From contig CAWIIP010000004.1 of NCBI GenBank assembly GCA_963836235.1, positions 128,001-192,000 on the forward strand: a stretch of DNA of 64,000 nucleotides, written 5' to 3'. Below the pieces are notes generated by a model. It saw only the letters and a list, made by a program, of their open reading frames with translations. It ran no database searches and was not told where the DNA came from. A program made the position numbers and the translations under genes. This stretch comes from an uncultured Pseudomonadota bacterium. Lineage in GTDB: Bacteria > Oederibacteriota > Muellerivitia > Muellerivitales > Muellerivitaceae. This document shows, piece after piece, positions 6,763-20,242 of this stretch (the first letter of the stretch is position 1; each line of letters opens with the position of its first letter).

Positions 6763-6791
6763 TTGACATTGAGTCGCTTATAAGCGACTAT
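6763..6791 (+). promoter_or_regulatory. TA promoter with palindromic operator
   Basis: TTGACA (6763) followed by perfect 18-bp palindrome AGTCGCTTATAAGCGACT (6772-6789). Confidence 0.7.
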
Positions 6792-6810
6792 TGAGAAAGG
6801 AACCGTTTTG

Positions 6811-7167
6811 ATGGAGCAAAACCCTTGGGCGATAGAACACTATGAAACACGGTCGGGAGTCAAACCCTTTGAGGTCTGGTTTGACCATCAAAGGAAAAGT
6901 GACCCCGTTACAGCGGCCTTAGTTGGCAAAAGAATTTCCCGATTGAGGTTTGGACATTTGGGAGATTACGACAACGTTGGAGATGGGGTTCTCGAACTTA
7001 GGAATTTCCACGGGCCAGGATACCGGATATATACCGGGAGAATTGGGGCCACCATGTACCTTCTTCTTGTGGGAGGAAGCAAGGGAAACCAGAACTCGGA
7101 CATTAAGCTGGCACGGGAATACTTTCGGGAATTTAAGGGAAGAAAGAAGAAGGAAGGTTCAAAATGA
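6811..7167 (+). CDS. RelE/HigB-type addiction module toxin
   Basis: VGDGVLELR..GPGYRIY, LLVGGSKGNQNSDI motifs. Confidence 0.88.
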   Translation: MEQNPWAIEHYETRSGVKPFEVWFDHQRKSDPVTAALVGKRISRLRFGHLGDYDNVGDGVLELRNFHGPGYRIYTGRIGATMYLLLVGGSKGNQNSDIKLAREYFREFKGRKKKEGSK

Positions 7168-7499
7168 AAAAGAACGCCGCTACAACGGACCACGACGATT
7201 TTATCGTCGGACAGTTAAAAAAGGACCCACGGTTTCTTGAAGCTTACCTAAATGAAGCCCTAAGTGACGAAAACGAGGACCCCCGCGTCGTTCTGGATAT
7301 GCTTCGTAAAGTCGCTGAGGCCAGTGGTGGGGTTAGAAAGTTGGCCCAGGCCGCAGACCTCAACCGGCAGAACCTTTATAAGGCCCTTTCCGCAGAGAAG
7401 GGAAACCCTGAATTTTTCACCATCAATAAGATCGTTAACGCCCTTGGTTTTCATTTCAAGCTTGTCAAAAACAAAAGACGACTGGCGATGGCGAAGTAA
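7164..7499 (+). CDS. HigA-type addiction module antitoxin (HTH)
   Basis: YLNEAL, GGVRKLAQAADLNRQNLYKALS..GNP; overlaps the toxin stop. Confidence 0.88.
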   Translation: MKKNAATTDHDDFIVGQLKKDPRFLEAYLNEALSDENEDPRVVLDMLRKVAEASGGVRKLAQAADLNRQNLYKALSAEKGNPEFFTINKIVNALGFHFKLVKNKRRLAMAK

Positions 7500-7723
7500 T
7501 TTTATTAACCCCTCCAGACATTCCGAAGCCTAATAAATAATGTCAAAATTTTAATTACCAAAAGAGAAACCCTCAACCCTGAAGGCTTCAAAAGAGGTAA
7601 AATCAAAATGGTCTTTGTGAAAGCGGTGTCCACGATTGGGACCCGCATTGGACAGGATAATTTTAATGATCGAGCCGTTTCTAAAGAGTTGAAATCAAGG
7701 TTGGATATTGAAAGAATCCTTTC

Positions 7724-8497
7724 ATGACCACCCGAATCCTTAAACCCTGGCCCGTTCTGGCGGACGTCATCGCTTCCATTGATCTTCATGACACCGCAAC
7801 CACTGGCGAAGGTCCCGCCTATTCGGTTTTGCCCTCCCCCCAATTTGTCATGGGGTTTCAATTGCAAGGCCGTTTGAAAACGCTTCGTCCTGGGACCGAA
7901 ACAACCCTTACTCCCAGCGGCGTTACCGGACTCCAGGGGCAAAGCCGTCTTTATCAAGGGGTCGGTAAGACCCGGTCCATCCTGGTGCGGTTCAAACCAT
8001 GGGGGCCTTCCTGCTTTTTACCGGGGCCCATGGGCGAGCTGATGAACGAAAGTGTGGATTTGCGCCAGTTGTGGGACCCGCAAGAAGTCAGCGACCTCGA
8101 AGATAAGCTTTATCACTCTACGCCCGGACCGGCGGTGGTCCTCTTGCAAACTTTTCTGGTCAAGTGCCGCCGGTTTCAAACCATCGATCCTCTGGCGCTC
8201 AACGCCGCCCAACGGTTCATCCTCAAAGCGGGTAATGTTTTGATCGGACGCATGGCCGGGGAACTGGCCACCACCGAACGTTCCCTCGAAAGACGGTTCC
8301 AGCAATGGATCGGCACCAGCCCCAAACGGTTCGCGGCCCTGCTGCGCTTCCAGAAAAGCATCCAAATGCTTCAGGCGGGAAAGGATGGAACCGAAGTGGC
8401 CTATGAATGCGGCTATTTCGACCAGGCTCATTTCATCCAGGAATTCAAGAATTTTACCGGTGTTTCACCCCAAAAATACAAAATCGGGCTGCTTTAA
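7724..8497 (+). CDS. AraC-family transcriptional regulator
   Basis: C-terminal double HTH: ERSLERRF..IGTSPK, CGYFDQAHFIQEFKNFTG. Confidence 0.9.
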   Translation: MTTRILKPWPVLADVIASIDLHDTATTGEGPAYSVLPSPQFVMGFQLQGRLKTLRPGTETTLTPSGVTGLQGQSRLYQGVGKTRSILVRFKPWGPSCFLPGPMGELMNESVDLRQLWDPQEVSDLEDKLYHSTPGPAVVLLQTFLVKCRRFQTIDPLALNAAQRFILKAGNVLIGRMAGELATTERSLERRFQQWIGTSPKRFAALLRFQKSIQMLQAGKDGTEVAYECGYFDQAHFIQEFKNFTGVSPQKYKIGLL

Positions 8498-8582
8498 GAT
8501 TGTCGGATTTTTCCAATAGGTTTTTTTCACTCTTTCCTAAAATTATTCAAGTTGGTTTATTACATCAAACAGGAGGACGTCA

Positions 8583-9245
8583 ATGAAAACGGAACAAAGG
8601 GCAGAGGTTTTGATTAATGTACACAAGGGGCTCCGCCGGGGGCTGTTGGGCCTGGCCCTCAAGCTGGGAGCCCTGGACTGGCAGGATCAGGAAGAGGTCA
8701 AGGCGGCCGGGGCGGATTTCGCCACCATGCTTCACTTTTTAAGGGAACACGCGGCCAACGAGGATCAGATCCAATTTCCTCTGCTGGAAAACAAGGTGTC
8801 CGGGGCCGCCCGCCGGGAAATGGAAGAACACCATCGCCTGGATGCACAGATCGACGATTTGGAAAAACAATGGGTGAGGCTGGCTGTGGAAGAGGACAAA
8901 TCCAAGCCGGGTTACGCCTTCTATCTGGCCTATAACCGGTTCCTTTCGGATTATCTGGCCCACATGGACCACGAAGAGACGGATCTGACCGACGCCCTTT
9001 ATCAAAATTTCACCGACGCTGAAATCGAGGCGGAGTTCAAAAAAATCATCGCCCGCACCCAGCCCGCGGACATGGGCATGATGCTGGGCTATATGATCCC
9101 GGGGATGAATCCGGGGGAGAGGGCCCAGTTCCTTTCCAAGCTTCAAAAGACCGCGCCGGCGCCGGTTTTTGAGAAAGTGAAAGGATTGGCCCAAAAGGTT
9201 CTGTCTTCCGGCGATTGGGAAAAGCTATCAGCACGGTTAGGATAA
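8583..9245 (+). CDS. Hemerythrin-domain protein
   Basis: H..., HAANED, EH, HMDHEE metal-ligand pattern. Confidence 0.75.
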   Translation: MKTEQRAEVLINVHKGLRRGLLGLALKLGALDWQDQEEVKAAGADFATMLHFLREHAANEDQIQFPLLENKVSGAARREMEEHHRLDAQIDDLEKQWVRLAVEEDKSKPGYAFYLAYNRFLSDYLAHMDHEETDLTDALYQNFTDAEIEAEFKKIIARTQPADMGMMLGYMIPGMNPGERAQFLSKLQKTAPAPVFEKVKGLAQKVLSSGDWEKLSARLG

Positions 9246-9346
9246 CCGTGATGGTGAAAACCGCTACTAATGTTGTCCACGACGGGGACCCATCGTGGAC
9301 AAAGTGATAACCATTTACCGATCAAAAAAACTAGGTTATCTGAAGC

Positions 9347-9694
9347 TCAAGCGTTCTTGTAATCGGTGAGGGCCCAAACCGCCAAAATCACGATCCCGCA
9401 AGTAACATAAAAACCAAGGACCGCTGGTACGGAGGAAAGTCCTAGGACAAAGGGCAGGGCGATGAGGCAGGGCCCGACCACTAATTCGATATAGCCGTGT
9501 ATTTTAAAAGGTATTACCTTCACCAGACCCATGGGAAAGTTCGTCAAGAACGTGAGGGCGAAGTGCACTCCCGCCAGGGAGTAGGAAATGACTGCCGGTA
9601 TCCCTGAAAAATGGAGAAGGGAGGGGGCGGCCAAGAAAACCAAAACAACCACGTAATCCAAATAACCATGAATCTTTGAGTTGATTATTTTCAT
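9347..9694 (-). CDS. Small 4-TM membrane protein (SPW-repeat-like)
   Basis: Twofold HGYxDY/HGYIEL repeat, hydrophobic helices; coupled to the upstream gene. Confidence 0.65.
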   Translation of the reverse strand: MKIINSKIHGYLDYVVVLVFLAAPSLLHFSGIPAVISYSLAGVHFALTFLTNFPMGLVKVIPFKIHGYIELVVGPCLIALPFVLGLSSVPAVLGFYVTCGIVILAVWALTDYKNA

Positions 9695-10338
9695 TTCAAA
9701 GCATCCTTTGCCGCCTTCATTAAATCTTCCGGGTTGACTCTTATTTTAATATCCGCGTTGAAATAAACGAAATGAATAAGACCCTTGGTGTCCACCACAA
9801 AGGCCGCTGGAACGGGCAATTCGTGGAGGGAATTCCCCGTGGCTTTGTCCAGATCGTGGCCGTAACTTTTCATCATCCCCAGCGTTTTCTCATCCAGGCG
9901 ATAGGCCAGGCCGAATTGACGGGTCAACTCCATGGTCCGGTCGGAAAGCAGGATATAGTTGATCCCGTGTTTCTCCAGGCTTTCCTTCAGGCTTTCGGGT
10001 TTGTCCGGCGTAATCGCCAAGACTTGATAACCCATTTTCATCAAATCAGGTTCGATCTTCACCAATTGGCCCATTTGCAAGTTGCAATAGGGACACCATC
10101 CCCCCCGGTAAAAAATAAGGATACTGGGCTTTTGGGAAATAAGGGTTTTGAGGGCCACCTTTTTTCCATCAAGGGTCGTCAGCTCCCCGTTGGGAATGCT
10201 TTGCCCCTTTTTGAGGGGTTGGACATCCTGCGGATTATCGTAAATCGGTTTTTTCATGGAATCGGCCCGAGCCATTTCAACCATTCCCAAACCTCCTCCA
10301 AAAAGAACCGTCAGGATGAGCGCCCATCGCTTTAACAT
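9691..10338 (-). CDS. Exported peroxiredoxin-like (AhpC/TSA) protein
   Basis: Signal peptide; FYRGGWCPYC thioredoxin-fold motif; LPVPAAFVVD. Confidence 0.85.
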   Translation of the reverse strand: MLKRWALILTVLFGGGLGMVEMARADSMKKPIYDNPQDVQPLKKGQSIPNGELTTLDGKKVALKTLISQKPSILIFYRGGWCPYCNLQMGQLVKIEPDLMKMGYQVLAITPDKPESLKESLEKHGINYILLSDRTMELTRQFGLAYRLDEKTLGMMKSYGHDLDKATGNSLHELPVPAAFVVDTKGLIHFVYFNADIKIRVNPEDLMKAAKDALK

Positions 10339-10570
10339 TCACCACCTCCGTGATTTTTAGTTTCCCGATGATTTGAAGGGATGAATACCTGGCCCTAGTT
10401 ATGAGGGCAAATACGTTCATCTGGTATGAAAAGTTACTTCCCTTGACCAAAACAAAGGTAAAGTATTGGCCTTGTCCACGACGGGGACCCGTCGTGGACA
10501 GGCAAACCGACGGTTGAATCGGCCCCAATTTCGGTGTATTCTTACTGGTAAGATTACTGGGAGGTAACCT

Positions 10571-10831
10571 ATGACAGTAGCGACCACAAAGCTTTCCTCG
10601 AAGGGGCAGGTAGTTATTCCTGAATCCATCCGCAAGAGCCTGCATCTCAAAGAAGGAGACCAATTCGTCGTCGTCGGCCAGGGGGATTCGGTGATCTTCA
10701 AAGCCATCACCCCGCCTTCCCTGAATCAACTTGACGGCTTACTGGCGACGGCGCGAAAGCAGGCGCGTGAAGCCAGCTTGCGCCCATCGGATATAAAGAC
10801 CGCGATTGCCCGGGTCCGGCGCGGTAAATGA
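10571..10831 (+). CDS. AbrB/MazE-family antitoxin
   Basis: TKLSSKGQVVIPESIRK motif; upstream palindrome TCTTAC-TG-GTAAGA (10540-10553). Confidence 0.88.
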   Translation: MTVATTKLSSKGQVVIPESIRKSLHLKEGDQFVVVGQGDSVIFKAITPPSLNQLDGLLATARKQAREASLRPSDIKTAIARVRRGK

Positions 10832-11229
10832 AAAGGATTGTTGTAATCGACACAAATGTTCTTGTGTCAGGAATCTTCTGGAAAGGGACACCTTACCAAG
10901 TAATTAAATCTTGGGAACGGGGCGACTTCAAGTTGTTGGCATCCCCGGAAATCTTTGATGAATACCGCCGTGTCTTCGCCGACCTTGCCAAACGGCATCC
11001 CGGCGTCGAGGTTGGGGCCATCCTTGAAATTATCGAATTGAATTGCGAATTGGTGAATGCCAAACCTGTCCACGGTGTTTGTAAAGACCCAGATGATGAT
11101 AAGTTCATAGCAGTGGCATTGGCAGGTGGCGCTGAGTTTATTGTCTCAGGCGACAAGGCATTGTTGGATGTTGGGGTTCATCAAAATGTTAAAATCATGA
11201 ATCCGTCCAATTTTCTGAAAAACCTATAA
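10828..11229 (+). CDS. PIN-domain (VapC-like) toxin
   Basis: VIDTNVLVS, CKDPDDDKF, IVSGDKALL. Confidence 0.88.
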   Translation: MKRIVVIDTNVLVSGIFWKGTPYQVIKSWERGDFKLLASPEIFDEYRRVFADLAKRHPGVEVGAILEIIELNCELVNAKPVHGVCKDPDDDKFIAVALAGGAEFIVSGDKALLDVGVHQNVKIMNPSNFLKNL

Positions 11230-11300
11230 TTGGGTTGTCCACGACGGGGACCCGTCGTGGACAGGCTAAATTGAAAAGTATGTTTATAGATGAGGCTTAA

Positions 11301-11978
11301 ATGAAGCGAAAATTAATCATGATACTTTTTTTATCATGCTCACAATTATGGGCAATTACACCCACGGCATCCCCTGGGCCCGACCCATCTGATGTCGAGG
11401 TAGTGAAGGATATTGATAATCCGAATAAAACCATTACAGCCGATTTTAAAGAAATTTTTATTAAGGCGAGCCATCAACCAACAAATATGGTTTGGCCCTA
11501 TTATCTAGACTTGGAAGGAAGGGGTCGGGACGAAGTCATAGTTTTTGGGGGTAGCAAACTTTTAGTTTTGAATCCAAATACTTTAAAAGTCGTTTTTGTA
11601 TTAAAAAACGATTTTAAAATTGATTTCGATACTGACGATAATATTCATTTTGGCCGAATTATTCAAAAAGGGCCCTATTGTTTTTGGTTTGAAAAAATCA
11701 CAAAAGTTCCAATGGCTGAAAATATGGTTCTTATGTCTTATGACTGGTCCTATGAGTGGTTTTTTTATTCTTTCATAGATGGCCAATGGAAAAGAGTTTT
11801 TTGCCAGAAATTTATAGGGCAGGATGACCACTACGGTGATGATCCCAACAATGAGGTGGATTTAAAGGATGGTAATTTAAGATGTGTAGATGTAACGGCA
11901 AGATGGGATAAAAAGTATAATTGCTTTGTTAAAATAGCTAAAACCAAGTTTAAGGCCCACACTGGTACCGGAAATTGA
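11301..11978 (+). CDS. Exported hypothetical protein
   Basis: Signal peptide, RBS GAGG; fills one cassette. Confidence 0.7.
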   Translation: MKRKLIMILFLSCSQLWAITPTASPGPDPSDVEVVKDIDNPNKTITADFKEIFIKASHQPTNMVWPYYLDLEGRGRDEVIVFGGSKLLVLNPNTLKVVFVLKNDFKIDFDTDDNIHFGRIIQKGPYCFWFEKITKVPMAENMVLMSYDWSYEWFFYSFIDGQWKRVFCQKFIGQDDHYGDDPNNEVDLKDGNLRCVDVTARWDKKYNCFVKIAKTKFKAHTGTGN

Positions 11979-12036
11979 ATTTGAGACACATTAGATGATG
12001 TCCACGATGGGGACCCGTCGTGGACAGGGGACACCA

Positions 12037-12066
12037 TTGCATTGTAACTACATTGTAGTGTATACT
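12037..12066 (+). promoter_or_regulatory. brnTA promoter/operator
   Basis: TTGCAT...TATACT with palindrome ACTACA-T-TGTAGT (12047-12059) between them. Confidence 0.55.
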
Positions 12067-12072
12067 TAAGCC

Positions 12073-12345
12073 ATGCTCGTCATTTGGGATCCCCAGAAAG
12101 CTATTTCCAATCTAAGAAAGCACGGGGTCTCATTTGAAGAGGCCCAATCCGTCTTGGAATCCGACGTTCAGTTGGTGCTGGAAGACAGGGGACACCACGA
12201 AGAAAGATTCGTCGCGCTTGGGTATTCGAAGAAACTAAACCTATTGGTGGTGGTTTACGCGTATCGGGAGATCGATGTTATTCGGATCATCTCGGCCCGT
12301 AAGGCCATACGAAAGGAAAGGGAAAACTATGAAAAAAGAATATGA
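12073..12345 (+). CDS. brnT: BrnT-family toxin
   Basis: WDPQKAISNLRKHGVSFEEA, EERF, RIISARKA. Confidence 0.9.
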   Translation: MLVIWDPQKAISNLRKHGVSFEEAQSVLESDVQLVLEDRGHHEERFVALGYSKKLNLLVVVYAYREIDVIRIISARKAIRKERENYEKRI

Positions 12346-12586
12346 TTTTTCAAAAGCTAAGGTTCATAAAGGCCCTCTGTTGGCTTCCAAGGGCTCTAAA
12401 ATTCAGAAAACTTTCCGGTTGGATGAGTCTGTTTACCTTTGGCTCATCGAGGAAGGCAAAAAACTAGGAATCCCCTATCAAACCCTCATGAACTCGATTT
12501 TGAAGCGTTCGATGTCCGATAACTCAACCCTCGAAGAACGCGTCCGAAAAATCGAACATAAATTAGGCCTGAAAAAGACAGGCTGA
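12329..12586 (+). CDS. brnA: BrnA-family antitoxin
   Basis: MKKEYDFSK, RLD, GIPYQTLMN; ATG at 12329 overlaps brnT. Confidence 0.88.
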   Translation: MKKEYDFSKAKVHKGPLLASKGSKIQKTFRLDESVYLWLIEEGKKLGIPYQTLMNSILKRSMSDNSTLEERVRKIEHKLGLKKTG

Positions 12587-12701
12587 TTTCCTCGAACAAA
12601 TCGGTTTTGTGAACTCGAAAACTCTGTCCACGGCGGGGACCCGTCGTGGACACTTAAATTAAAAATGTGCTTTTAATCGAATGGGCGGGAGGAATTCTTA
12701 A

Positions 12702-13235
12702 GTGCGGCATTTTCTTTCGATGGTTTTGATTTTTGTGTTAGCGCCGATAGTGTGGGCAGACGAGGGTACCCCGGTCCCCACCCCAACCCACCCCCCTATC
12801 ACAACCCATTGGACGACCCTGGGAGGAATGCAATATTTACAAAATAACAAGGCGTTATCCGGGCCTGAGTTGAAAGATCTTATTAACTCCATCGACGATC
12901 AACAAGCCACCGCACTTCTGAATAAATCTGAATCGGATGAAACGCTAGGATTTTTTGGATTGGGTGGTTCGGTAATCCTGTCGGTTGGGTCTTTATTCTT
13001 CCCGAATACGCATATCTACATATTTGGCCTGGATATTTCCACTCCTTATATGCCTATCGCCGTTCCGGGGGCGGTTTTAGGCGTCGCGGGCGGGCTCCTT
13101 GAACTCGAAGCCAATACCGCCAAATACGCCTCTGTCCAACGCTATAACCACGTTACTAAACAATCGGATTCAATTACTTGGAACCTCACTCCCCAAAAAG
13201 ACGGTTTGGGCTTAAGTTTAGGTTATAGCTTTTGA
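12702..13235 (+). CDS. Exported/membrane hypothetical protein
   Basis: RBS GGAGGA, signal peptide, PT-rich linker, terminal YSF. Confidence 0.7.
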   Translation: MRHFLSMVLIFVLAPIVWADEGTPVPTPTHPPITTHWTTLGGMQYLQNNKALSGPELKDLINSIDDQQATALLNKSESDETLGFFGLGGSVILSVGSLFFPNTHIYIFGLDISTPYMPIAVPGAVLGVAGGLLELEANTAKYASVQRYNHVTKQSDSITWNLTPQKDGLGLSLGYSF

Positions 13236-13267
13236 ATACCAGATCAAATTGGGATTGAAAGAGTTCT

Positions 13268-14530
13268 ATGGTTAAGAAGGGCTTTACACAAAAACGTTCC
13301 CGGCGGGTTACCCTGAAAAAAACCTCTTTTCTCTATCTGTCTTTATTTGTAATGACAATGCTCTCCCTCGGATTCCTTTTTCAGGGTTGCACTTTACTTT
13401 TTGTGTCAAAAGGCGAAACACGGTACGTCGAAAATAAGACGCCTCAAACTCCCCCAGCGCCGTCACTCTCCCGTCAAATGAATAAAACGGTTGTTTTAAA
13501 ATACAAAGTTCAGGAAGGGGATACCTTCCAGTCCATTGCCGCCATTTACTATGGCGTGACTTCAAAAGCATCCAAGGTGGCATCCGCAAACCATTTGAGC
13601 CTGAAATCGAAGTTGAAAGAAGGAAAGGTCTTGAGGATCGTGGACCCGGTTAATTTCCCGAACCCCAAGGAATTGGTGAAGAAGAAACCGACAGCCCAGA
13701 CTACGACTGAAACCCCGAAACCCGGCCCTATATCCCACCTAGATACCACGCCGGAAAACATCACCCAAGTACCCCGTCCTAAAAAGAACTACGCCTTTGG
13801 GCCCGGAGAAAAGCTTACCTTTGAAGTAAAAGCTCTTTCCATGGTGGGGGGATACGGGACATTGGAGATTGGGAATCCGGTCACTGTCCAAGACCGTCCT
13901 TGTTATCCACTGTCCGCCAAAGCCACGGCGGCTTTTCCTTTCAGCATGGTTTACCAGGTACATGATGTGCAAACGAGTTATTTTGATGTGGTGGACTTCC
14001 TGACCTGGAAATTCGAGAACGACGTTCTGGAAGGCAAGCACAAGGCCCAGAACTTGGAAATCTATGACCAGGTCAAACACAAGGTCGTACGGTCCAAGGG
14101 AAATGAGCCTCCTGAGGAAATAGACATAGCCCCCTTCACCCAGGACATTATTTCCTGCTTTTTCTACTTCCGCCTTCTGCCTCTCGAAGTCGGGAAGAAC
14201 TATTCCATTCCCGCTCAGGCCGCAGGCTACAACTATAACTTGATCGTGGAGGTCATCAAAAAAGAACGAATTACCATACCTTCCGGTACTTATGATTGTC
14301 TGTTAGTGAAACCCCATGTCCGGTACGCGACGGTTTTTCGCAACACGGACGATATCAATATTTGGCTTACCGATGACCAAAGGCATTTGCCGGTATTGGT
14401 CACCAGCAAAATATTTATCGGAAATGTTGAGGCGACCCTTATCGAGGCTAACCTGCCAAAAGTGAAAGAACCTGAGAAAAAGCCCGAACCAAGAATCCAA
14501 ACCCATAAGCGCAAAAAGGAGGAAGAATGA
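13268..14530 (+). CDS. LysM + DUF3108-like lipoprotein
   Basis: Lipobox-like FQGC, LysM YKVQEGDTFQSIA, GEKLTF...IWLTDDQRHLPV. Confidence 0.75.
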   Translation: MVKKGFTQKRSRRVTLKKTSFLYLSLFVMTMLSLGFLFQGCTLLFVSKGETRYVENKTPQTPPAPSLSRQMNKTVVLKYKVQEGDTFQSIAAIYYGVTSKASKVASANHLSLKSKLKEGKVLRIVDPVNFPNPKELVKKKPTAQTTTETPKPGPISHLDTTPENITQVPRPKKNYAFGPGEKLTFEVKALSMVGGYGTLEIGNPVTVQDRPCYPLSAKATAAFPFSMVYQVHDVQTSYFDVVDFLTWKFENDVLEGKHKAQNLEIYDQVKHKVVRSKGNEPPEEIDIAPFTQDIISCFFYFRLLPLEVGKNYSIPAQAAGYNYNLIVEVIKKERITIPSGTYDCLLVKPHVRYATVFRNTDDINIWLTDDQRHLPVLVTSKIFIGNVEATLIEANLPKVKEPEKKPEPRIQTHKRKKEEE

Positions 14531-15012
14531 ACGATCCTCAGGAAATTAATCGAACTTTTAACCGTCCATTTTCGAAAGCGGCCTTTCTTCTCCTGCTTTT
14601 GCTCTTACTTCCAACTCCAAAAGCCTATTGCCGTAACGAAGCCGTAACCATCCCGCTTATCGCGGCGGATTATTATGGATGGGCCTATACCGAAGCCTTC
14701 ATGGATAAGTCCTATGTTTACGGCTGGTCCACGGCAGGCGTGGACACCTTGGGGTGGACGATCCTTCTGACACGGAAGGAATATTCGGGTTTGTTTTTCG
14801 TCAATGTGGCGGGCATCGCCAAAACCGTGTATCCGGTGGTACAGCTTTTAGCTTCGTCGGACTCGGATACCCGAAGCCGGGCGTGGATTGCCTTGGGTAC
14901 CCATACCGCGACGCTGATAAGCCTGGAACTTTTAGGCAAACCGGCTTTGAGCATTCAAACCATGGTTCCTAAAAATGGGGGCTATGGGGCGTCGTTGGCT
15001 TTTCGGTTTTAA
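14527..15012 (+). CDS. Exported/membrane hypothetical protein
   Basis: Overlapping start/stop with the upstream gene; hydrophobic N-terminus; terminal FRF. Confidence 0.6.
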   Translation: MNDPQEINRTFNRPFSKAAFLLLLLLLLPTPKAYCRNEAVTIPLIAADYYGWAYTEAFMDKSYVYGWSTAGVDTLGWTILLTRKEYSGLFFVNVAGIAKTVYPVVQLLASSDSDTRSRAWIALGTHTATLISLELLGKPALSIQTMVPKNGGYGASLAFRF

Positions 15013-15039
15013 AATAACACCAAATAATAAGAGGGAAAA

Positions 15040-15414
15040 ATGGACGATTTGATTCTGTATTTAGGTGCTTTCCTGATTGGGTCTATTCCGTTCGGATTTT
15101 TGTTGGCAATGACGTTCAAGAAAATCGACTTGAGGAAAAAGGGGACCGGCGATGTCGGCGTGACCAATGCCTGGAAGGTAGCGGGTACCCCATTGGGCCT
15201 GTTGACGCTAGTTTTGGATATTTTAAAAGGTGGCACGGCAATTTTCCTGGCCCATGGACTTTCCCCCAAAGACCAGCCGGATTGGGTTCTGGCCGGTTTC
15301 CTAGCCTTGCTTGCCGATGAATTTCCCGTTTTCTTAAAGTTCAAGGGCGGTAGAGGGATCGGAACAAGCATAGGCGTTTTTGCGTCGCTTCTTTACTGGA
15401 TGTTGAGTAAGTAA
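15040..15414 (+). pseudogene. Truncated/short PlsY-like glycerol-3-phosphate acyltransferase
   Basis: GSIPFG, DLRKKGTGDVGVTNAW, DILKG, FKGGRG motifs, but only 124 aa (full PlsY about 200 aa) and FPV-preceding His replaced (DEFPV). Confidence 0.6.
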
Positions 15415-15523
15415 AGGATCCAGCATTTTATAAACTCGTTGAAATGGTGAAAACCCCTGTCCACGACGGGGACCAGCCGTGGACAACCTCGTCCAGGCTT
15501 TTTGAACCTCACAGTGGTATGAG

Positions 15524-16300
15524 TCAGTTTTTGAAAATGCTCCAAATGTGATTAAGGAATTTTTTTGGTTTTGGCCCTGTTTCATTTTTTTGAACATCCG
15601 GCTTGGCAAGATCAAAGAGAAGAATTTCGGTGGGCATTTGGGCCGTAAATGAAACGGAAATTTCATCGGATAAACCGGCACCATCCCCTGTTTGAAGTTT
15701 TAGATCATTCATTAGAATTTGACCGCTCACCACATGAAGCCATCCGTTTCGGTCCGGGCCAAGCTCATGAATTACATGATTGCCCTTTTGAATGAGCGTG
15801 GAGTACATCCGAACGTCCTTTTGTATTTTGAGCGATTCCTTTTCCCCCTCGGGAGAGGCGATGAGTTTCAAAATCCCCTTCCGTTCTGCGTGAGTAAAGT
15901 GTTTTTTTCTATTGCCCGGTTTCGACACAAACATGCTTGGGATAAACCCGCTTTGGAAGACATGTGCGTCATCGGTTAGCAAAGTGTCGAACCCATACTC
16001 TTTTATGACGGAAGCGAGATTGATCTGATGGATTTCCCCGGATTCAAGCAACCCGGACGTTCCCAATGGGCCATCATAGATAATTAAGCCTTCCTTAACA
16101 TAAGCTACGATCACTGCATTCTCATGGGTGCTTAGTATGAATCCCGTACCTGGGGAAAGTATTTCTTCGTTGAATATTTTGAGTCCGCCAAACCCATTTT
16201 GTAGGGAATCGGTATTATTTTCCCAGTCGAAGGTTCTCCAGGTGTTTCGAACATTGTCCGCAATATGACGACGTTCTTCCGACTTCCGCACGTTAATCAT
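15524..16300 (-). CDS. Pirin-like bicupin (YhhW/YhaK type)
   Basis: RKSEERRH, FGGLKIFNEEIL.PGTGF, WLHVVSG, GDGA, EILLFDL. Confidence 0.8.
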   Translation of the reverse strand: MINVRKSEERRHIADNVRNTWRTFDWENNTDSLQNGFGGLKIFNEEILSPGTGFILSTHENAVIVAYVKEGLIIYDGPLGTSGLLESGEIHQINLASVIKEYGFDTLLTDDAHVFQSGFIPSMFVSKPGNRKKHFTHAERKGILKLIASPEGEKESLKIQKDVRMYSTLIQKGNHVIHELGPDRNGWLHVVSGQILMNDLKLQTGDGAGLSDEISVSFTAQMPTEILLFDLAKPDVQKNETGPKPKKFLNHIWSIFKN

Positions 16301-16650
16301 TTTTTTGATTTCGTAATCGTTATTGGACGTTCAGCGAAGTCTAGTATGAGTCGGTTTAAAAAAGTTCGGGGGGGGGCGAAATTTTAGATAGAACTCTCAT
16401 GGGAGATTCTCCGAAGCGGTGGATTGTGTGCGAAAAAATTGATGTTTAAAATATACCCTGGTTTGAAAATTAAACCTGCCGAATTCGAAACTATTTAATA
16501 TTCAAGATTCTCCCACTGGCAGATTTATCAAAATGAGAGCCATGAAAAAGGAAAAAATGGTTAAATTTAGGAGTTGAGGGTTGTCCACGACGGGGACCCG
16601 TCGTGGACAGGGCGAAACCATAAAAAGTCGTTCCATTGGAGGTGAATTTA

Positions 16651-17085
16651 ATGGCTATTGATACCAGTGGCAAGTTCTGGAAAGGTCAAAACACCGACGA
16701 CTTGATCGAATATATCCGTCTTCTCACAAAAGAGGGATATCCCACCAGTAAACATGTCGTCGCTAAATGTACCTGCGGAAAACAACACTTCCAACTTACC
16801 GCTGACCAAGATGAAGGATGCGCCAAACGCATTTGTACTTCCTGCGGGAAAGAAACGTTTATTTGCGATAGTGAAGAAGCGTGGCAGGACTCCTCCTCGA
16901 AGAAATTAAAGTGTAAATGCAAAACGGACATTTTTGAGATCGTTGTTGGCTTTTCCCTGAGAGACGATGGTGAGATAAAATGGGTTAACGTCGGTCAACG
17001 ATGTGTTAATTGCGGAATACTTGGGTCGTATGTTAATTGGGGTATTGATTATGCTCCAACGAAACAACTTTATACGATGGTATGA
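16651..17085 (+). CDS. Cys-rich (zinc-ribbon) hypothetical protein
   Basis: RBS GGAGGT; CTC, CTSC, CKC, CVNC pairs; fills one cassette. Confidence 0.7.
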   Translation: MAIDTSGKFWKGQNTDDLIEYIRLLTKEGYPTSKHVVAKCTCGKQHFQLTADQDEGCAKRICTSCGKETFICDSEEAWQDSSSKKLKCKCKTDIFEIVVGFSLRDDGEIKWVNVGQRCVNCGILGSYVNWGIDYAPTKQLYTMV

Positions 17086-17115
17086 CTTGTCCACGACGGG
17101 GAGGCAAAGTAAACA

Positions 17116-17403
17116 ATGTATTTTAAGTTTTTGAATAAGCCGATACCAAAACGTGTTTACATTGAAACTAAATGGCTAAGGAAATTAGTGGCTTGGTATC
17201 TTATAGTTCACACGTTAATAGGGTATTTAATATTCTGGAAAATTTTTCCCCGGTATCATGCAGATGGTTCACTGAACCCTTGGTATTTTGTTTTTTTGCC
17301 CGTGATGTTGTTATGCGTTCTTATAACTTTTGTTATCTTTTATTGCTTTGTGGGTTATGTGGAAAAGTTTTTCCTTAAAAAGCCAAAAAATATAAAAAGA
17401 TGA
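17116..17403 (+). CDS. Small 2-TM membrane protein
   Basis: Two hydrophobic helices, basic ends; exactly fills the interval between two sites. Confidence 0.6.
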   Translation: MYFKFLNKPIPKRVYIETKWLRKLVAWYLIVHTLIGYLIFWKIFPRYHADGSLNPWYFVFLPVMLLCVLITFVIFYCFVGYVEKFFLKKPKNIKR

Positions 17404-17481
17404 TTAGATTGTCCACGACGGGGACCCATCGTGGACAGGGAAAAGGCTTTAGAAGGCTTTTCGATATGAGGAGTAAAATTA

Positions 17482-17811
17482 ATGAGCGATGAAGAGATTT
17501 TTGAAAGCGCCATCAATCAAAACGGGGATTTGGGCGCTGTATTCGAACGGGCGGACGGCACTTGTTACTTTTACTTATGCAAAATAAAAGATGGAAAACC
17601 AGATGGGGTAATGGACACGATTCATGTCACCTCAAAAAAACCTGATTTTGGTCAAAAGGATATTGAAGTGAAGTGGAATCACTCAGGGGAAAAGGTTGGT
17701 TTCTTAGTGAAGGGGAAACTCGTTGCATTTTTTGACACGAAAACGAAAAGCAAACATGGAGAGAATATGACTCCGATTATTCCGGAGATCGTCGAAAGCT
17801 TCGGGGTTTAG
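17482..17811 (+). CDS. DUF2251-like hypothetical protein
   Basis: RBS GAGGAG; AVFERADGTCYFY...DTIHV...W....KVGFLVKG...FFD pattern. Confidence 0.55.
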   Translation: MSDEEIFESAINQNGDLGAVFERADGTCYFYLCKIKDGKPDGVMDTIHVTSKKPDFGQKDIEVKWNHSGEKVGFLVKGKLVAFFDTKTKSKHGENMTPIIPEIVESFGV

Positions 17812-17964
17812 AAAGCAAACAATAATTTGAGGTTGTCCACGATGGGGAGCCGTATTGGACGGTTAAATGATTAGTAGGCTTATTCAATAAGGGGAGGCGT
17901 TTATGAAATGGTGGATGAAAGGCCATTTTAATGGCGTTGAATTCATGTGGTGTGAGGTTCACAA

Positions 17965-18627
17965 ATGTTTCTGAATAGAGAAAAATATAAATGGTCTTTT
18001 GTTGGGATCGTTATAGGTTTTTTAATAGCGGGATGTTTTTGTAATGGTTTATTGTTTCATGAATGGAAAGATGTTATGGCGGCGTTGATTGGAGCTGCAG
18101 TTGGCGGTGGAGTTACATGGCTTACTACCAGAGAATTAATAGATCAACAAATTAAACTTGAAAAAGTGAAAAGCGAATTAATACAAATTCACTTCATTAA
18201 AGCCGTGAAAACAGAAATTAAAATTCTAAAAGATATTTATATGCAAATGGTTGGTAACGAAACTGAAAAACTTAAAGTTGGAGAACCTTTGAACCTTACG
18301 TGGTCAAATCACCAAGATTATTTTACGATTTATCAAGGCAACAGCAGTTTTATAGGTGGGGTGACAGATGATGCCTTGCGGGAATTGATTGTGGCCACAT
18401 ATGCGAAGGCGAAGGGGTTGTTGGATTCATACAGTCACAATAACGAATTGGTTGAAAGACTAGATTATTTAGCTAAAGAAAGTCGCACAGGATTTGGTAT
18501 GAAGCCGACGGTTACCGCAGAACAGTACAAAGATCATTTAACAATGATGGTTAAATATGCCGAAGGTATCAAAGGTTCGCATCAAGACTTTTTAAAAAAC
18601 GTAAATGAGTTATTGGCGAAAATCTAA
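17965..18627 (+). CDS. Membrane-anchored hypothetical protein
   Basis: Two N-terminal TM helices followed by a helical domain. Confidence 0.7.
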   Translation: MFLNREKYKWSFVGIVIGFLIAGCFCNGLLFHEWKDVMAALIGAAVGGGVTWLTTRELIDQQIKLEKVKSELIQIHFIKAVKTEIKILKDIYMQMVGNETEKLKVGEPLNLTWSNHQDYFTIYQGNSSFIGGVTDDALRELIVATYAKAKGLLDSYSHNNELVERLDYLAKESRTGFGMKPTVTAEQYKDHLTMMVKYAEGIKGSHQDFLKNVNELLAKI

Positions 18628-18793
18628 AAGGGGGTCTTGGTTGTCCACGACGGGGAGGCGTCCTTCTTAATTGCAATCCCAAGACCTGGCCCCATTTTTT
18701 CAGACCCAATTTTCCATAATCGTACGAGATGGTCAACACGGTTAGTCTCATTTCCATTCTAACGTCCTTAGGACTTTCAACCGTTTTTAAATA

Positions 18794-19387
18794 ATGGTAA
18801 AATTTCTTAACATGAGCAAAAAACTTGGAATTTTCATTGATAGCTGTGCTTGGAATTTCCTTTACGACCACGGAATAAATTTGTCCAAAGAATTGCCAGT
18901 GGATGAGTTTGATTTATTTGTTACGAAAGAAGTTGGTTCGTTCGAGATTCCAGAAATTCCTGAAGAGAAGAAAGGCCTCGCGGAATACATTCGAAAACAA
19001 AGGGAGGAGCGAGGCGTTAAGGAAGATTCGTATTTTGGTTTCTCTTCTTACAATGACCCGCCGGAAAAGCGATACAGAATTGGCGGTTTTGGTGAAGGGC
19101 GATTTGCAACTTACCGGGATGCAGAAGTGTTGAAGAAATTCCAGATAATACCGGCTCCGGGAGAAAAAGAGGGGAAGACAGGTCTTTATAAGAATGAAGC
19201 GGATGCCTCTCTCGCCGTCAGAGCTGGTGTTGGGAATGTTGTGTTGACAGCAGAGAAATTGAATAAAGGGCCGTTAAAAAAAGCCTCAAGTGAGTATGGG
19301 CGAGTAGTTAGTTTGTTGGGCTTTAATCCTTCAAATCAATCCTTGAAGAATTACATAATCTCGTCAGTTAAACCGAACAAACATTAA
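18794..19387 (+). CDS. PIN-like domain protein
   Basis: IFIDSCAWNFL, E, ADASLA, VLTAE pattern. Confidence 0.55.
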   Translation: MVKFLNMSKKLGIFIDSCAWNFLYDHGINLSKELPVDEFDLFVTKEVGSFEIPEIPEEKKGLAEYIRKQREERGVKEDSYFGFSSYNDPPEKRYRIGGFGEGRFATYRDAEVLKKFQIIPAPGEKEGKTGLYKNEADASLAVRAGVGNVVLTAEKLNKGPLKKASSEYGRVVSLLGFNPSNQSLKNYIISSVKPNKH

Positions 19388-19510
19388 CATACTTATTTGG
19401 TCCAACTGATTATTTCGACCTTTTTACCCATGGCGGGGGAGTGGTGTGGATAACAACCAAGCCCCTTTTAACCCGTTGCTTTGAATTTCCCTTGGAGGTT
19501 TTTTTAGCCA

Positions 19511-20242
19511 ATGTGTGGACGATACATAATCAGCTCTGATCCCGGTAAGGTTGCCAAGGACTTTAAGGCCGACCCTTACGAGTCCTTTAAGCCCAGCTAC
19601 AATGTCAAGCCGACCCAAAAGGCCCCGATCATTCGCCTGAACCCCGAAACCGGAAAAAGGGAACTGGTCCTGGTCAAATGGGGGATGCCTTTTTTTGACC
19701 TGAAATCCAAGAAATATATTTATAAGCTTATCAACGCCGTGGGCGAGACCATCACCGAGAAAGCGACCTTCAAGAAGCATTTCAGGGAAGACAGATGTTT
19801 GGTTCCTGTAGACGGCTTTTACGAATGGAAGGAAATCTCCAGTAAGTTGAAACAGCCTTACTTCATCGAGTTAAAGGCCAAAGGCACCTTCGCTTTTGCC
19901 GGTATTTGGGGCCGGTGGAACATGACGGTGGACGACGAAGCCACCATCCTCAAAAAGAAAATGGTAAACCCCAATTACGAACCCAAAAAGGAGGAAGTCG
20001 AGACTTTCTCCATTATCACAACCACCCCCAACAAACTGCTGAAAGAAATCCATAACACCAAGCCCCGTATGCCGGTCATCGTCGAAAAAAAGAATTGGGA
20101 TGCTTGGTTGGACCGTTCCTTCCAGGAGGAGGGTTCTTTAAAAGGCTTCTTGCGGTCTTATCCCGATGAGAAAATGCAGGCATGGCCGGTCAAGCCGCTC
20201 TCCGGGGATGATGCTTCGCTTATTGAAAAAGTAAAGATTTAG
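19511..20242 (+). CDS. SOS response-associated peptidase (SRAP/YedK)
   Basis: N-terminal MCGRY, YNVKPTQ, INA..E, GFYEW, H..RMPV. Confidence 0.93.
   Translation: MCGRYIISSDPGKVAKDFKADPYESFKPSYNVKPTQKAPIIRLNPETGKRELVLVKWGMPFFDLKSKKYIYKLINAVGETITEKATFKKHFREDRCLVPVDGFYEWKEISSKLKQPYFIELKAKGTFAFAGIWGRWNMTVDDEATILKKKMVNPNYEPKKEEVETFSIITTTPNKLLKEIHNTKPRMPVIVEKKNWDAWLDRSFQEEGSLKGFLRSYPDEKMQAWPVKPLSGDDASLIEKVKI

What the first reader, a model, noticed from the sequence alone, without database searches (positions are those of the whole stretch)
7627..19452. Integron-like gene-cassette array delimited by a 28-bp 13-2-13 palindrome
Seen: 12 intergenic copies of TGTCCACGACGGG-GA-CCCGTCGTGGACA (7627, 9274, 10473, 11236, 11999, 12625, 15458, 16582, 17088 half, 17410, 17834, 18642 half), all with the asymmetric GA centre on the same strand, and no full copy noticed elsewhere in the window. 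They split about 12 kb into unrelated 0.3-2.8 kb units of 1-4 genes (AraC+hemerythrin, peroxiredoxin pair, VapBC-like TA, secreted protein, BrnTA, envelope cluster, pirin, several orphans). Plus-strand cassettes end 2-43 bp before the next site. Known: integron arrays and pdif modules have this logic, but attC sites have GTTRRRY/RYYYAAC ends and bulged stems, and dif sites have different XerC and XerD arms; neither fits. Inference: a gene-capture platform using symmetric recombination sites (28 bp fits either serine resolvase site I, 13-2-13, or a tyrosine recombinase 11-6-11 site), carried on an ICE, with the recombinase outside this window.
Basis: partly seen in the sequence, partly recalled or inferred. 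Interest (0 to 1): 0.92.

Follow-up and report, generated by a model that had tools for sequence, protein, structure and literature searches.

The report
Integron-like gene cassettes, novel 28-bp site
A 28-base near-palindrome splits this stretch, and a dozen other places in the genome, into small swappable gene units much like an integron, but with a different site and no integron enzyme, in an uncultured peat-soil bacterial lineage.

Summary
All 12 copies are at the stated coordinates on one strand: 8 at 3 or fewer mismatches, 2 at 5, and 2 left halves.

The array is not unique. The genome has 77 copies: 70 in 13 co-oriented arrays and 7 singletons. The same 28-mer occurs in 18 of 24 genomes of the family and in 0 of 15 genomes of other families of the phylum.

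The units behave as cassettes. In 18 cross-context homologous pairs, none aligns more than 10 bp past a site, and 9 end at the sites on both sides. Cassettes that are 97-100% identical occur in another genus, among unrelated neighbours. The window's array is cargo of a tRNA-Thr ICE. A related ICE carries different cassettes at the same backbone position.

The site is functionally asymmetric. Positions 1-18 and 23-28 are conserved, and 19-22 vary without compensation.

No integron integrase is present. Serine and Y1 enzymes are missing from array-rich relatives, and no recombinase gene recurs beside arrays.

Best reading (about 0.6): an IntI-independent cassette system using site-specific recombination, enzyme unidentified. 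Main rival: hairpin repeats shuffled by homologous recombination.

The parts
7627..7654 (+). first, degenerate copy of the 28-bp site (5 mismatches)
   Evidence: weak ssDNA hairpin, -7.3 kcal/mol
7655..9273 (+). cassette 1: AraC-type regulator (7724-8497) and hemerythrin-domain protein (8583-9245)
   Evidence: Pfam
9274..9301 (+). site, 1 mismatch
9302..10472 (-). cassette 2, genes on the minus strand: SPW-repeat protein (9347-9694) and AhpC/TSA peroxiredoxin (9691-10338)
   Evidence: Pfam
10473..10500 (+). site, exact consensus
   Evidence: ssDNA hairpin -17.7 kcal/mol, z -7.2
10501..11235 (+). cassette 3: MazE-like antitoxin (10571-10831) and PIN toxin (10828-11229)
   Evidence: Pfam
11236..11263 (+). 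site, exact consensus
11264..11998 (+). cassette 4: 225-aa protein with no family (11301-11978)
11999..12026 (+). site, 1 mismatch
12027..12624 (+). cassette 5: BrnT toxin (12073-12345) and BrnA antitoxin (12275-12586). Homologous cassettes occur in G001 (88%) and G018 (84%), with homology ending at the sites and with other neighbours.
12625..12652 (+). site, 1 mismatch
12653..15457 (+). cassette 6: 177-aa orphan, LysM/DUF3108 protein (13268-14530), 161-aa orphan, and a PlsY-like fragment (15040-15414). The homologue in metagenome contig L073 starts exactly at a site and lacks the fourth ORF.
15458..15485 (+). site, 2 mismatches
15486..16581 (-). cassette 7, gene on the minus strand: pirin-like protein (15524-16300). 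Both ends of the cassette are 98.6-100% identical to contig ends of G018, a different genus.
16582..16609 (+). site, exact consensus
16610..17087 (+). cassette 8: 149-aa orphan
17088..17115 (+). left-half-only copy (2 mismatches in the left 18, right arm lost)
17116..17409 (+). cassette 9: 95-aa orphan
17410..17437 (+). site, 1 mismatch
17438..17833 (+). cassette 10: DUF2251 protein (17482-17811)
17834..17861 (+). site, 5 mismatches
17862..18641 (+). cassette 11: 220-aa protein with a weak SLATT_1 hit, below the cut-off
18642..18669 (+). terminal left-half-only copy; likeness ends after about position 15-18
3762..3837 (+). tRNA-Thr, attachment site of the ICE that carries the array
   Evidence: Its 3' half is repeated at C4:197213-197266 and C4:245911-245972.
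4072..7499 (+). ICE backbone before the array: type IV coupling protein (4072-5913), relaxase-like 270-aa protein (5928-6740), 119-aa ORF and HI1420-type antitoxin (7164-7499)
   Evidence: Collinear with the G001 ICE up to about 180 bp before the first site.
19511..25516 (+). ICE backbone after the array: SRAP (19511-20242), UmuD-like (21055-21522), UmuC-like (21488-22759), ArdC (24608-25516)

Best explanation
The 28-mer is the recombination site of a cassette system that works like an integron but is not one.

Each mobile unit is the last 10 bases of one site (NNNN-TGGACA), then one to four genes, then the first 18 bases of the next site (TGTCCACGACGGGGACCC). A recombinase acting in trans is proposed to exchange strands inside or at the 3' edge of the invariant, asymmetric core GGGGACCC (positions 11-18). 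That would release a unit as a circle with one site and insert it at any other site in one fixed orientation. The result is co-oriented arrays in chromosomal loci and in ICE cargo regions. ICEs then carry the arrays between genera.

Shown:
- the array architecture and its strict polarity
- conservation of the site sequence across the family
- arms that assort with their own cassette
- homology that stops at the sites
- near-identical cassettes in other genera among different neighbours

Inferred:
- a dedicated site-specific recombinase rather than homologous recombination
- its class, most likely a tyrosine recombinase with a 10-8-10 site
- the circular intermediate

The enzyme is not identified.
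For: Architecture:
- The genome has 77 sites: 70 in 13 arrays and 7 singletons. 68 of the 70 arrayed sites share their array's orientation.
- There are 57 inter-site intervals, median 800 bp. Among crude ORF calls inside arrays, 75 are co-oriented and 15 are opposed. Units with opposed genes keep the site polarity.

Mobility:
- One search gave 20 cassette pairs from non-adjacent contexts. 2 are physical overlaps of neighbouring flanks.
- Of the other 18, 0 align more than 10 bp past a site although 150 bp of flank was offered.
- Among those 18, 9 end at the sites on both sides in both members, 5 share one end at the sites, and 4 are internal partial matches.
- One 1276-bp cassette is 100% identical at C2:1195352-1196597 and C4:57529-58774, with unlike flanks.
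- A single G018 contig holds one cassette 96.8% identical to G000 C2:1193140-1193919 and the start of the window's pirin cassette at 100%. They are separated by cassettes without a close G000 counterpart.
- Core DNA between these genera is about 71-80% identical.
- The cassettes of one G001 array have homologues at 8 scattered G000 places on 3 contigs.
- The ICE backbone is collinear between the window and G001 up to about 180 bp before the first site. After that only the sites match.

Site anatomy:
- In 182 sites, positions 1-18 and 23-28 carry 1.1-1.9 bits. Positions 19-22 carry 0.55-0.87 bits.
- Inner-stem pairing is no better than chance: 469 of 732 cells paired, against 477.6 +/- 6.1 in shuffles. 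All four inner pairs form in 55 of 183 sites.
- Variant right arms (TTCG, AAGGAACA) travel with the downstream cassette. Homology of a terminal cassette ends at 18|19.
- Both copies of a group II intron interrupt the site at 18/19.

Conservation:
- The same 28-mer occurs in 18 of 24 family genomes, across 13 of 17 genera, and in 0 of 15 genomes of other families of the phylum.
- Exact copies in 185,579 species representatives fall in 46 stretches. 24 titles name candidate division FCPU426. The other 22 name other or no taxa, and I did not check their placement.

Not a terminator: 0 of the 12 window sites appear in the intrinsic-terminator scan.
Against: No enzyme was found:
- The integron integrase model scores at most 40.9 bits against a cut-off of 265.
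- No protein family recurs beside sites in the 66 loci clustered; the most widespread is in 5 loci.
- No recombinase gene lies within 10 kb of an array in the positions compared for G010, G018, G021 and G023.

No excised circle and no site-to-site deletion was seen. Every joint in the metagenome contigs had at most 31 letters on one side, which is only the repeat itself.

28 bp of identity may be enough for rare homologous recombination (recalled, not tested). That would also favour direct over inverted alignment.

Array polarity equals the local gene and replication direction in 13 of 13 arrays. Selection on gene orientation could therefore explain part of the polarity.

Group II introns and IS110-family elements also target REPs and terminators (recalled). 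Their presence does not single out a recombination site.

The second ICE in tandem has no array.

Left-half-only copies outnumber right-half-only copies: 21 against 4 of 306, and 16 against 3 in G000. A simple reciprocal model does not predict this.
Confidence: 0.6

Rival explanations
1. The 28-mer is a REP-like structured intergenic repeat: a hairpin at the 3' ends of accessory genes, perhaps stabilising mRNA or binding a host protein. Cassette shuffling would be a by-product of RecA-dependent or replication-slippage recombination between 28-bp identities, with no dedicated recombinase.
For: - The consensus folds into a strong hairpin, -17.7 kcal/mol, z -7.2.
- Copies sit 2-43 bp after stop codons.
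- No recombinase was found.
- Introns and IS110 elements use the site, as they do REPs and terminators (recalled).
- Polarity follows gene and replication direction in 13 of 13 arrays.
Against: - The hairpin is not maintained. Inner pairs are at chance level and only 55 of 183 sites pair fully. Degenerate copies fold weakly yet keep positions 1-18.
- Conservation is side-specific.
- Copies are not dispersed beside core genes: 70 of 77 lie in 13 arrays.
- The non-palindromic centre GA is 97-98% conserved.
- Units with reversed genes keep the site polarity.
- No Y1 (RAYT-type) gene was found in G018, which is 99% complete and has the most sites.
- The three Y1 genes of G000 are not flanked by the 28-mer.
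- There is no T tail after the hairpin.
Confidence: 0.22
2. The sites are dif-like (11-6-11) and are recombined by the host's single Xer-type recombinase, as in the pdif modules of Acinetobacter.
For: - The site is 28 bp long and can be read as 11-6-11.
- Of the two tyrosine-recombinase kinds recognised in array-bearing G010, the Xer-like gene, a 353-aa frame as in G000 and not re-scored by family model, is the kind that could be universal. Its distribution across the family was not tested (one search failed).
- The G000 protein scores 169 bits to XerC, below the cut-off of 335.
Against: - The Xer-like gene sits at the gene-strand switch of contig C1. Two bases upstream of it lies its own 28-bp 11-6-11 palindrome with an AT-rich centre. 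That palindrome shares no arm sequence with the cassette site.
- The palindrome was matched at 3 or fewer mismatches in 4 of 31 family genomes, and is single-copy in each of the four.
- pdif modules are bounded by sites in alternating orientation (recalled), whereas these are direct.
- About 77 dif-like sites in one chromosome would be hazardous.
Confidence: 0.05
3. The sites are 13-2-13 crossover sites of a small or large serine recombinase, with the GA centre as the 2-bp overlap that sets polarity.
For: - The geometry and the invariant asymmetric GA fit.
- Some left-only copies diverge right after position 15, in the GGGGA|GG class.
- A truncated large serine recombinase ORF ends 35 bp from the end of the array at C2:164698.
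Against: - No PF00239 match was found in G021 (90% complete), G023 (89%) or G005 (98%), which are 3 of the 5 array-rich genomes searched.
- G000 has only two such genes, one truncated and one inside another island.
- Most left-only copies keep positions 16-18, and the GGGGAGG/GGGGAGC variant also occurs in full sites.
Confidence: 0.05
4. The arrays are relics of true integrons (clusters of attC sites lacking an integrase) with an extremely shortened attC.
For: The arrays have the same architecture, including toxin-antitoxin cassettes and a group II intron inside the site.
Against: - No IntI: the best score is 40.9 bits against a cut-off of 265.
- The site is 28 bp with no conserved flanks beyond one base on each side.
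- Its ends, TGTCCAC and GTGGACA, do not match RYYYAAC and GTTRRRY (consensus recalled, compared by eye).
- Here the sequence is conserved, whereas in attC the structure is conserved and the sequence is not (recalled).
Confidence: 0.03

Closest known systems
Integrons and clusters of attC sites lacking an integrase (IntI / attC / attI)
   Same: - Co-oriented arrays of mostly single-ORF, mostly co-oriented cassettes, each with a site just after its stop codon.
- Toxin-antitoxin cassettes.
- The site is split asymmetrically between neighbouring cassettes.
- Cassettes are shared between taxa among different neighbours.
- The site is a target of a group II intron, and of IS110-family elements in relatives.
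- Arrays occur both in chromosomes and on conjugative elements.
   Different: - No IntI gene.
- The site is 28 bp, against roughly 55-140 bp for attC (recalled).
- The sequence, not the structure, is conserved.
- No RYYYAAC/GTTRRRY ends.
- No attI-like common sequence or adjacent integrase at array starts.
- There are 13 arrays per genome instead of one platform.
pdif (Xer) modules of Acinetobacter plasmids and chromosomes
   Same: 28-bp sites bound small gene modules that occur in different contexts. The recombinase is not encoded next to the modules. What I saw of the papers was the search listing and abstracts only.
   Different: - The sites here are direct repeats with near-identical arms and a GC-rich centre.
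- The host's probable dif, next to its single xer gene, is a different sequence.
- pdif modules are bounded by sites in alternating orientation (recalled).
REP/BIME elements with their RAYT (Y1 HUH) transposases
   Same: A short GC-rich near-palindrome in intergenic DNA, conserved within a lineage, with tens of copies, and used as a target by IS110-family elements.
   Different: - 70 of 77 copies lie in gene-cassette arrays.
- No RAYT gene is flanked by the repeat.
- The Y1 family was not found in the genome with the most sites.
- No GTAG-type 5' motif (recalled feature; logo).
- The pairing is not maintained.
Group IIC-attC introns and IS1111-attC elements (parasites of integron sites)
   Same: - A group II intron lies inside the site in both of its G000 copies.
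- IS110-family transposase genes lie 68-69 bp from a site in L042, L048 and L054.
   Different: The host site is not attC. The intron's class was not determined beyond the Rfam hits RF02005 and RF00029.

Membership tests
Integron / CALIN | Integron integrase IntI (tyrosine recombinase with the IntI-specific insertion) | tested here: not met
   TIGR02249 over the whole genome: best 40.9 bits against a cut-off of 265. The Xer-like protein scores 77.9 bits.
Integron / CALIN | attC site: R''-L''...L'-R' with RYYYAAC/GTTRRRY ends, structure conserved rather than sequence, roughly 55-140 bp | tested here: not met
   The conserved block is positions 0-29 only. The ends are TGTCCAC and GTGGACA. The sequence is conserved and the pairing is not. 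The attC consensus is recalled, and no attC covariance model was available.
Integron / CALIN | Co-oriented array of promoterless cassettes, each ORF followed by a site | tested here: met
   68 of 70 arrayed sites are co-oriented. There are 75 co-oriented against 15 opposed ORFs, and the median interval is 800 bp. Whether the cassettes lack promoters was not tested.
Integron / CALIN | attI and Pc next to the integrase at the head of the array | tested here: not met
   The 500 bp upstream of the 13 arrays share no sequence except between paralogous genes. A weak 30-bp match did not recur.
pdif / Xer modules | Sites resemble the host's dif and are bound by its Xer recombinase(s) | tested here: not met
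   The probable dif at C1:329898-329925, 2 bp from the single xer-like gene at the gene-strand switch, is unlike the 28-mer. Binding was not testable.
pdif / Xer modules | Modules bounded by sites in opposite orientation | tested here: not met
   The sites are direct repeats within arrays. The feature itself is recalled.
REP / RAYT | A RAYT (Y1 HUH) gene flanked by the repeat and co-occurring with it | tested here: not met
   G000 has three PF01797 genes, none near a 28-mer. The family was not found in G018 (99% complete), G001 or G023.
REP / RAYT | Dispersed copies in intergenic regions across the core genome | tested here: not met
   70 of 77 copies lie in 13 arrays and 7 are singletons.
Serine resolvase/invertase crossover site | A serine recombinase gene present wherever the sites are kept | tested here: not met
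   PF00239 was not found in 3 of 5 array-rich genomes: G021, G023 and G005.
Intrinsic terminator | GC-rich stem-loop followed by a T run | tested here: not met
   0 of 12 window sites are in the terminator-like list. The consensus downstream of the site is A-rich.
CRISPR array | Short repeats separated by 25-50 bp spacers | tested here: not met
   The intervals are 21-4719 bp, median 800, and hold genes.
Tyrosine-recombinase core site (arm - asymmetric overlap - arm) | Inverted arms around a 6-8 bp asymmetric overlap that must be identical between partners | tested here: inconclusive
   The 10-8-10 reading fits. GGGGACCC carries 1.57-1.86 bits at each position, and both left-only and right-only hybrids keep it. 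No enzyme or cleavage data exist.

The most novel reading that the evidence does not exclude
This is a second, IntI-independent gene-cassette capture system in an uncultured candidate phylum (record titles: candidate division FCPU426). It would use a sequence-defined 28-bp site with an 8-bp asymmetric core, served in trans by a recombinase that is either a specialised member of the ICE-integrase family or an unrecognised enzyme class. It would spread cassettes between genera on ICEs. On this reading it is a convergent reinvention of the integron.
Probability: 0.5. Interest if true: 0.9.

Novelty: new variant of a known kind. Interest (0 to 1): 0.8.

Why it matters
Integrons are the only well-established general platform that stockpiles and shuffles single-gene cassettes. 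pdif modules are a narrower case.

A system with the same logic, but a short sequence-defined site and no IntI, would show that cassette capture evolved more than once. It would also give a simple 28-bp site for studying how genes acquire recombination sites. And it would point to an undescribed recombinase, or to a new activity of ICE integrases.

It also shows how uncultured peat bacteria exchange toxin-antitoxin, stress and envelope genes across genera.

The claim can be tested with two-site plasmids and with long reads from peat metagenomes that already hold near-identical cassettes.

Tried and rejected
Enzyme hunt:
- Y1 HUH transposases were rejected. They are not found in G018, G001 or G023, and the G000 copies have other flanks.
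- Serine recombinases were disfavoured.
- The ICE-type integrases of about 370 aa occur in 26 of 31 family genomes. They were not found in three zero-site genomes (G006, G019, G024) but are present in two others (G009, G017). This is suggestive only, and the genomes are kin.
- The 425-aa integrase at C2:929190 is sporadic.
- The two 100%-identical multi-copy genes inside arrays look like ordinary IS transposases. I judged this from their sequences and copy numbers, not from a family search.
- A weak tyrosine-recombinase hit 2.8 kb from a site in G001 contig C18 lies in a stretch that looks compositionally foreign: dense overlapping ORFs and arginine- and alanine-rich translations. GC was not computed. 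It was dropped.

Other leads:
- A variant-arm motif (TGTTCCTT.../...AAGGAACA) is not a second repeat family.
- A short degenerate dif motif found no dif.
- An attI-like motif did not recur.

Metagenome runs:
- 20 runs from 10 studies hold 21-38% of the sampled words.
- The 14 joints listed all have sides of 20-31 letters, which is only the repeat, so they are no evidence of excision.
- Parts of the array without cover are no evidence either.
- Contigs of four studies cover all or much of window 12625-16599 at high identity (for example 10 differences in 3745 bp in X1), in one piece in X1 and X15. They break at the sites.
- One X7 contig (record 32) leaves the window right after the site at 15458-15485. 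Depth in the next bin (15520-16120) is 0.2 in that run.

Atlas search of CysS for taxonomy was uninformative.

Supplementary files of papers were not consulted.

Claims of absence from print rest, which gave listings and abstracts only. No paper was opened.

Full report
OBSERVATION. The consensus TGTCCACGACGGGGACCCGTCGTGGACA occurs at 8 window positions at 3 or fewer mismatches, against 0.00 expected in 100 shuffles. A search seeded on either half adds 7627 and 17834 (5 mismatches each). It also adds 17088 and 18642, which keep only the left part. Pfam confirms the gene content of the intervals. Plus-strand ORFs stop 2-43 bp before the next site.

GENOME-WIDE PICTURE. The window is G000:C4:128001-192000, from a 3.97-Mb assembly in 5 contigs that is 99.4% complete.
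- The genome holds 77 copies: 70 in 13 arrays of 2-14 sites on four contigs, plus 7 singletons. 68 of the 70 arrayed sites share their array's orientation.
- The 57 inter-site intervals have a median of 800 bp and a range of 21-4719 bp. With a crude ORF caller, 75 ORFs inside arrays are co-oriented with the sites and 15 are opposed. Units with opposed genes, such as the peroxiredoxin and pirin units of the window, still have sites in the array's orientation.
- In 13 of 13 arrays the site orientation equals the majority gene strand of the flanks. This genome has a strong gene-strand bias that follows GC skew.

DISTRIBUTION.
- At 3 or fewer mismatches the 28-mer is found in 18 of 24 other genomes of the same family, in 13 of 17 genera. 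Counts run from 1 to about 50 per genome.
- There is one 3-mismatch hit in the single genome of a second family, and none in 15 genomes of other families of the phylum. The reversed control pattern gives 0 everywhere.
- Six family genomes have none. They are G009 (97% complete), G017 (97%), G024 (94%), G006 (85%), G007 (85%) and G019 (82%).
- An exact-match scan of one genome per 185,579 species found 46 stretches, all in metagenome-assembled genomes. 24 titles name candidate division FCPU426. The other 22 read uncultured proteobacterium or Alphaproteobacteria, Candidatus Firestonebacteria, uncultured bacterium or bacterium. I did not check where those lie.
- No paper in the library holds the sequence. 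The papers that mention FCPU426 are community surveys, judging from listing and abstracts.

THE UNITS ARE CASSETTES. I cut out every interval between consecutive co-oriented sites in G000 and in 20 loci of G001 (same genus) and G018 (another genus). Each interval kept 150 bp of flank beyond each site. All were compared with all.
- 20 pairs from non-adjacent contexts matched over at least 200 bp. 2 are physical overlaps of neighbouring flanks.
- Of the remaining 18, none aligns more than 10 bp beyond a site. 9 end at the sites on both sides in both members, 5 share one end at the sites, and 4 are internal partial matches.
- A 1276-bp unit is 100% identical at C2:1195352-1196597 and C4:57529-58774, with unlike DNA outside.
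- The window's BrnTA unit is 88% identical to one in G001 and 84% to one in G018. In G001 it lies next to a toxin-antitoxin unit whose G000 homologue is on another contig.
- One G018 contig carries a unit 96.8% identical to G000 C2:1193140-1193919 and, 4.6 kb away, the first 173 bp of the window's pirin unit at 100%. The units between them have no close G000 counterpart. The other end of the pirin unit is 98.6% identical at another G018 contig end. Core DNA between these genera is about 71-80% identical.
- The cassettes of one G001 array have G000 homologues at 8 scattered places on 3 contigs.
- A metagenome contig (L073) has the window's envelope unit at 76% identity. It starts exactly at a site, has other neighbours, and lacks the fourth ORF.

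ICE CONTEXT.
- The window has tRNA-Thr at 3762-3837, then a coupling protein, a 270-aa protein that resembles Replic_Relax clusters (Atlas lead only) and a toxin-antitoxin pair. The array follows, and then SRAP, UmuDC and ArdC.
- The 3' half of the tRNA is repeated at C4:197213-197266 and C4:245911-245972. Each repeat lies just after an integrase of about 370 aa. Two ICEs therefore lie in tandem, and the first runs about 5 kb past the window end.
- The second ICE has the same backbone but no array.
- The G001 relative of the first ICE is collinear up to about 180 bp before its first site. After that it shares only the sites.
- Backbone genes of this ICE type turned up within 25 kb of only 3 of the 12 other arrays. 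So the ICE carries an array but does not define the system.

ANATOMY OF THE SITE.
- A logo of 182 sites shows a conserved block from one base before to one base after the 28-mer. Positions 1-18 and 23-28 carry 1.1-1.9 bits and positions 19-22 carry 0.55-0.87 bits. Their mirror positions 7-10 carry 1.1-1.6 bits. The centre GA is 97-98% conserved.
- The inner stem is not maintained. 469 of 732 cells pair, against 477.6 +/- 6.1 when right halves are shuffled among sites. Only 55 of 183 sites form all four inner pairs.
- The consensus folds strongly as single-stranded DNA (-17.7 kcal/mol). Degenerate copies fold weakly (-7.3 and -7.8 kcal/mol) yet keep the left 18 bases.
- None of the 12 window sites scores as an intrinsic terminator.
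- In homologous cassettes, unusual right arms (TTCG, AAGGAACA) go with the downstream cassette. A terminal cassette's homology ends at 18|19.
- Hybrids that keep only one outer arm still keep the core GGGGACCC. Left-only copies outnumber right-only copies: 21 against 4 of 306 distinct sites, and 16 against 3 in G000 with mirrored patterns.
- The simplest reading is arm (1-10), asymmetric overlap (11-18), arm (19-28), with exchange within or at the 3' edge of the overlap.

PARASITES OF THE SITE.
- A 1.94-kb group II intron (Rfam RF02005 at 60.4 bits and RF00029 at 51.5 bits, with a 436-aa ORF) has two 99.8%-identical copies. Both are inserted inside a 28-mer after position 18 or 19.
- In other genomes, group II reverse-transcriptase genes lie in 5 loci that hold sites. 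IS110-family transposase genes lie 68-69 bp from a site in 3 loci. G000 has no IS110-family gene.

THE ENZYME. It was not found.
- No integron integrase is present.
- G000 has 8 PF00589 genes: six ICE-type paralogues that are 57-70% identical, one Xer-like gene and one 425-aa integrase.
- Serine recombinases were not found in 3 of 5 array-rich relatives.
- Y1 transposases were not found in G018, G001 or G023.
- In G010, which is 99% complete, the five PF00589 hits fall into two kinds. Four (at three places) coincide with matches to the ICE-type integrase. The fifth is a 353-aa frame that I take to be the Xer-like gene, from its length only.
- The Xer-like gene sits at the gene-strand switch of contig C1, with a different 28-bp 11-6-11 palindrome 2 bp upstream. 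That palindrome is single-copy in each of the 4 of 31 family genomes where it was matched. It is probably dif, which argues against Xer acting on the cassette site.
- ICE-type integrases occur in 26 of 31 family genomes. They were not found in three zero-site genomes but are present in two others.
- No protein family recurs beside sites in the 66 loci clustered. Array heads share no attI-like sequence.

POPULATION DATA.
- Twenty runs from 10 studies of peat, moss and related samples hold 21-38% of the array's sampled words.
- Laid contigs of four studies cover all or much of 12625-16599 at high identity, in one piece in X1 and X15, and break at sites. One X7 contig leaves the window right after the site at 15458-15485.
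- All listed joints have at most 31 letters on one side and are not evidence.

VERDICT. The cassette reading is well supported by comparison. The mechanism, site-specific recombination by a trans-acting and probably tyrosine-type enzyme, is inferred, and homologous recombination between hairpin repeats remains the main rival.

The system works like an integron but fails every sequence-level membership test for integrons, pdif modules and REP/RAYT. I file it as a new variant of a known kind.

Noticed in passing
window 3762-64000 and beyond (G000 C4:131762-245972): Two ICEs lie in tandem at tRNA-Thr. They are bounded by 54-62 bp repeats of the tRNA's 3' half, and each ends with an integrase of about 370 aa. 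Only the first carries a 28-mer array.
   Followed up: partly
window 26768-54794: The ICE cargo is rich in defence-type genes: two WYL proteins, an FtsZ/tubulin-like protein, GmrSD, a PD-(D/E)XK/RNase H-like helicase of 1141 aa, patatin plus a DncV-like cyclase (CBASS-like), DUF499 with a DUF1156 methylase and an SNF2 helicase, and HamA plus a helicase (Hachiman-like).
   Followed up: no
G000 C1:223031-224988 and C2:1476544-1478501 (L001): A 1.94-kb group II intron has two 99.8%-identical copies, each inserted inside a 28-mer after position 18 or 19.
   Followed up: yes
L042:5803-6879, L048:5396-6472, L054:6564-7049: IS110-family transposase genes start 68-69 bp from a 28-mer in other genomes of the family. 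This suggests an insertion sequence that targets the site. G000 has none.
   Followed up: partly
G000 C1:328834-329925 (L024): A single Xer-like recombinase gene lies at the gene-strand switch, which looks like the terminus. A 28-bp 11-6-11 AT-centred palindrome sits 2 bp upstream and is probably dif. It was matched once each in 4 of 31 family genomes at 3 or fewer mismatches.
   Followed up: partly
G000 C2:1231169, C2:427130, C2:1943049; similar copies in G001/G018 loci: A recurrent hybrid joins the left 18 bases of the site to ATTCGAC- or CGTTCGAC-type sequence, outside arrays. Two copies share 41 bp. Unexplained.
   Followed up: partly
G000 C2:163828-164725 (L002:3828-4726): A large-serine-recombinase ORF truncated at 278 aa ends 35 bp before the terminal left-only site of a 3-site array.
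   Followed up: partly
window 15040-15414: A PlsY-like ORF of 124 aa, matching profile positions 2-102 of 164, is appended to the envelope cassette with no site in between. The homologous cassette in L073 ends with a site right after the third ORF. This could be two cassettes fused by loss of a site.
   Followed up: partly
whole genome G000: Gene-strand bias is very strong, with 80-99% of coding length on one strand over long stretches, and it follows GC skew. Every array points the same way as the local majority strand.
   Followed up: partly
window 16452-16609 vs L005:5876-6034: A 158-bp segment that includes a site matches G001 at 87% in the opposite orientation, so it lies on the other side of the palindromic site. 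This could be an inversion with a breakpoint at the site.
   Followed up: no
L081:7800-18000 (G001 contig C18): The contig appears to change composition abruptly after its last 28-mer: dense overlapping ORFs and arginine- and alanine-rich translations (GC was not computed). It is probably a chimeric or contaminant join in that assembly.
   Followed up: no
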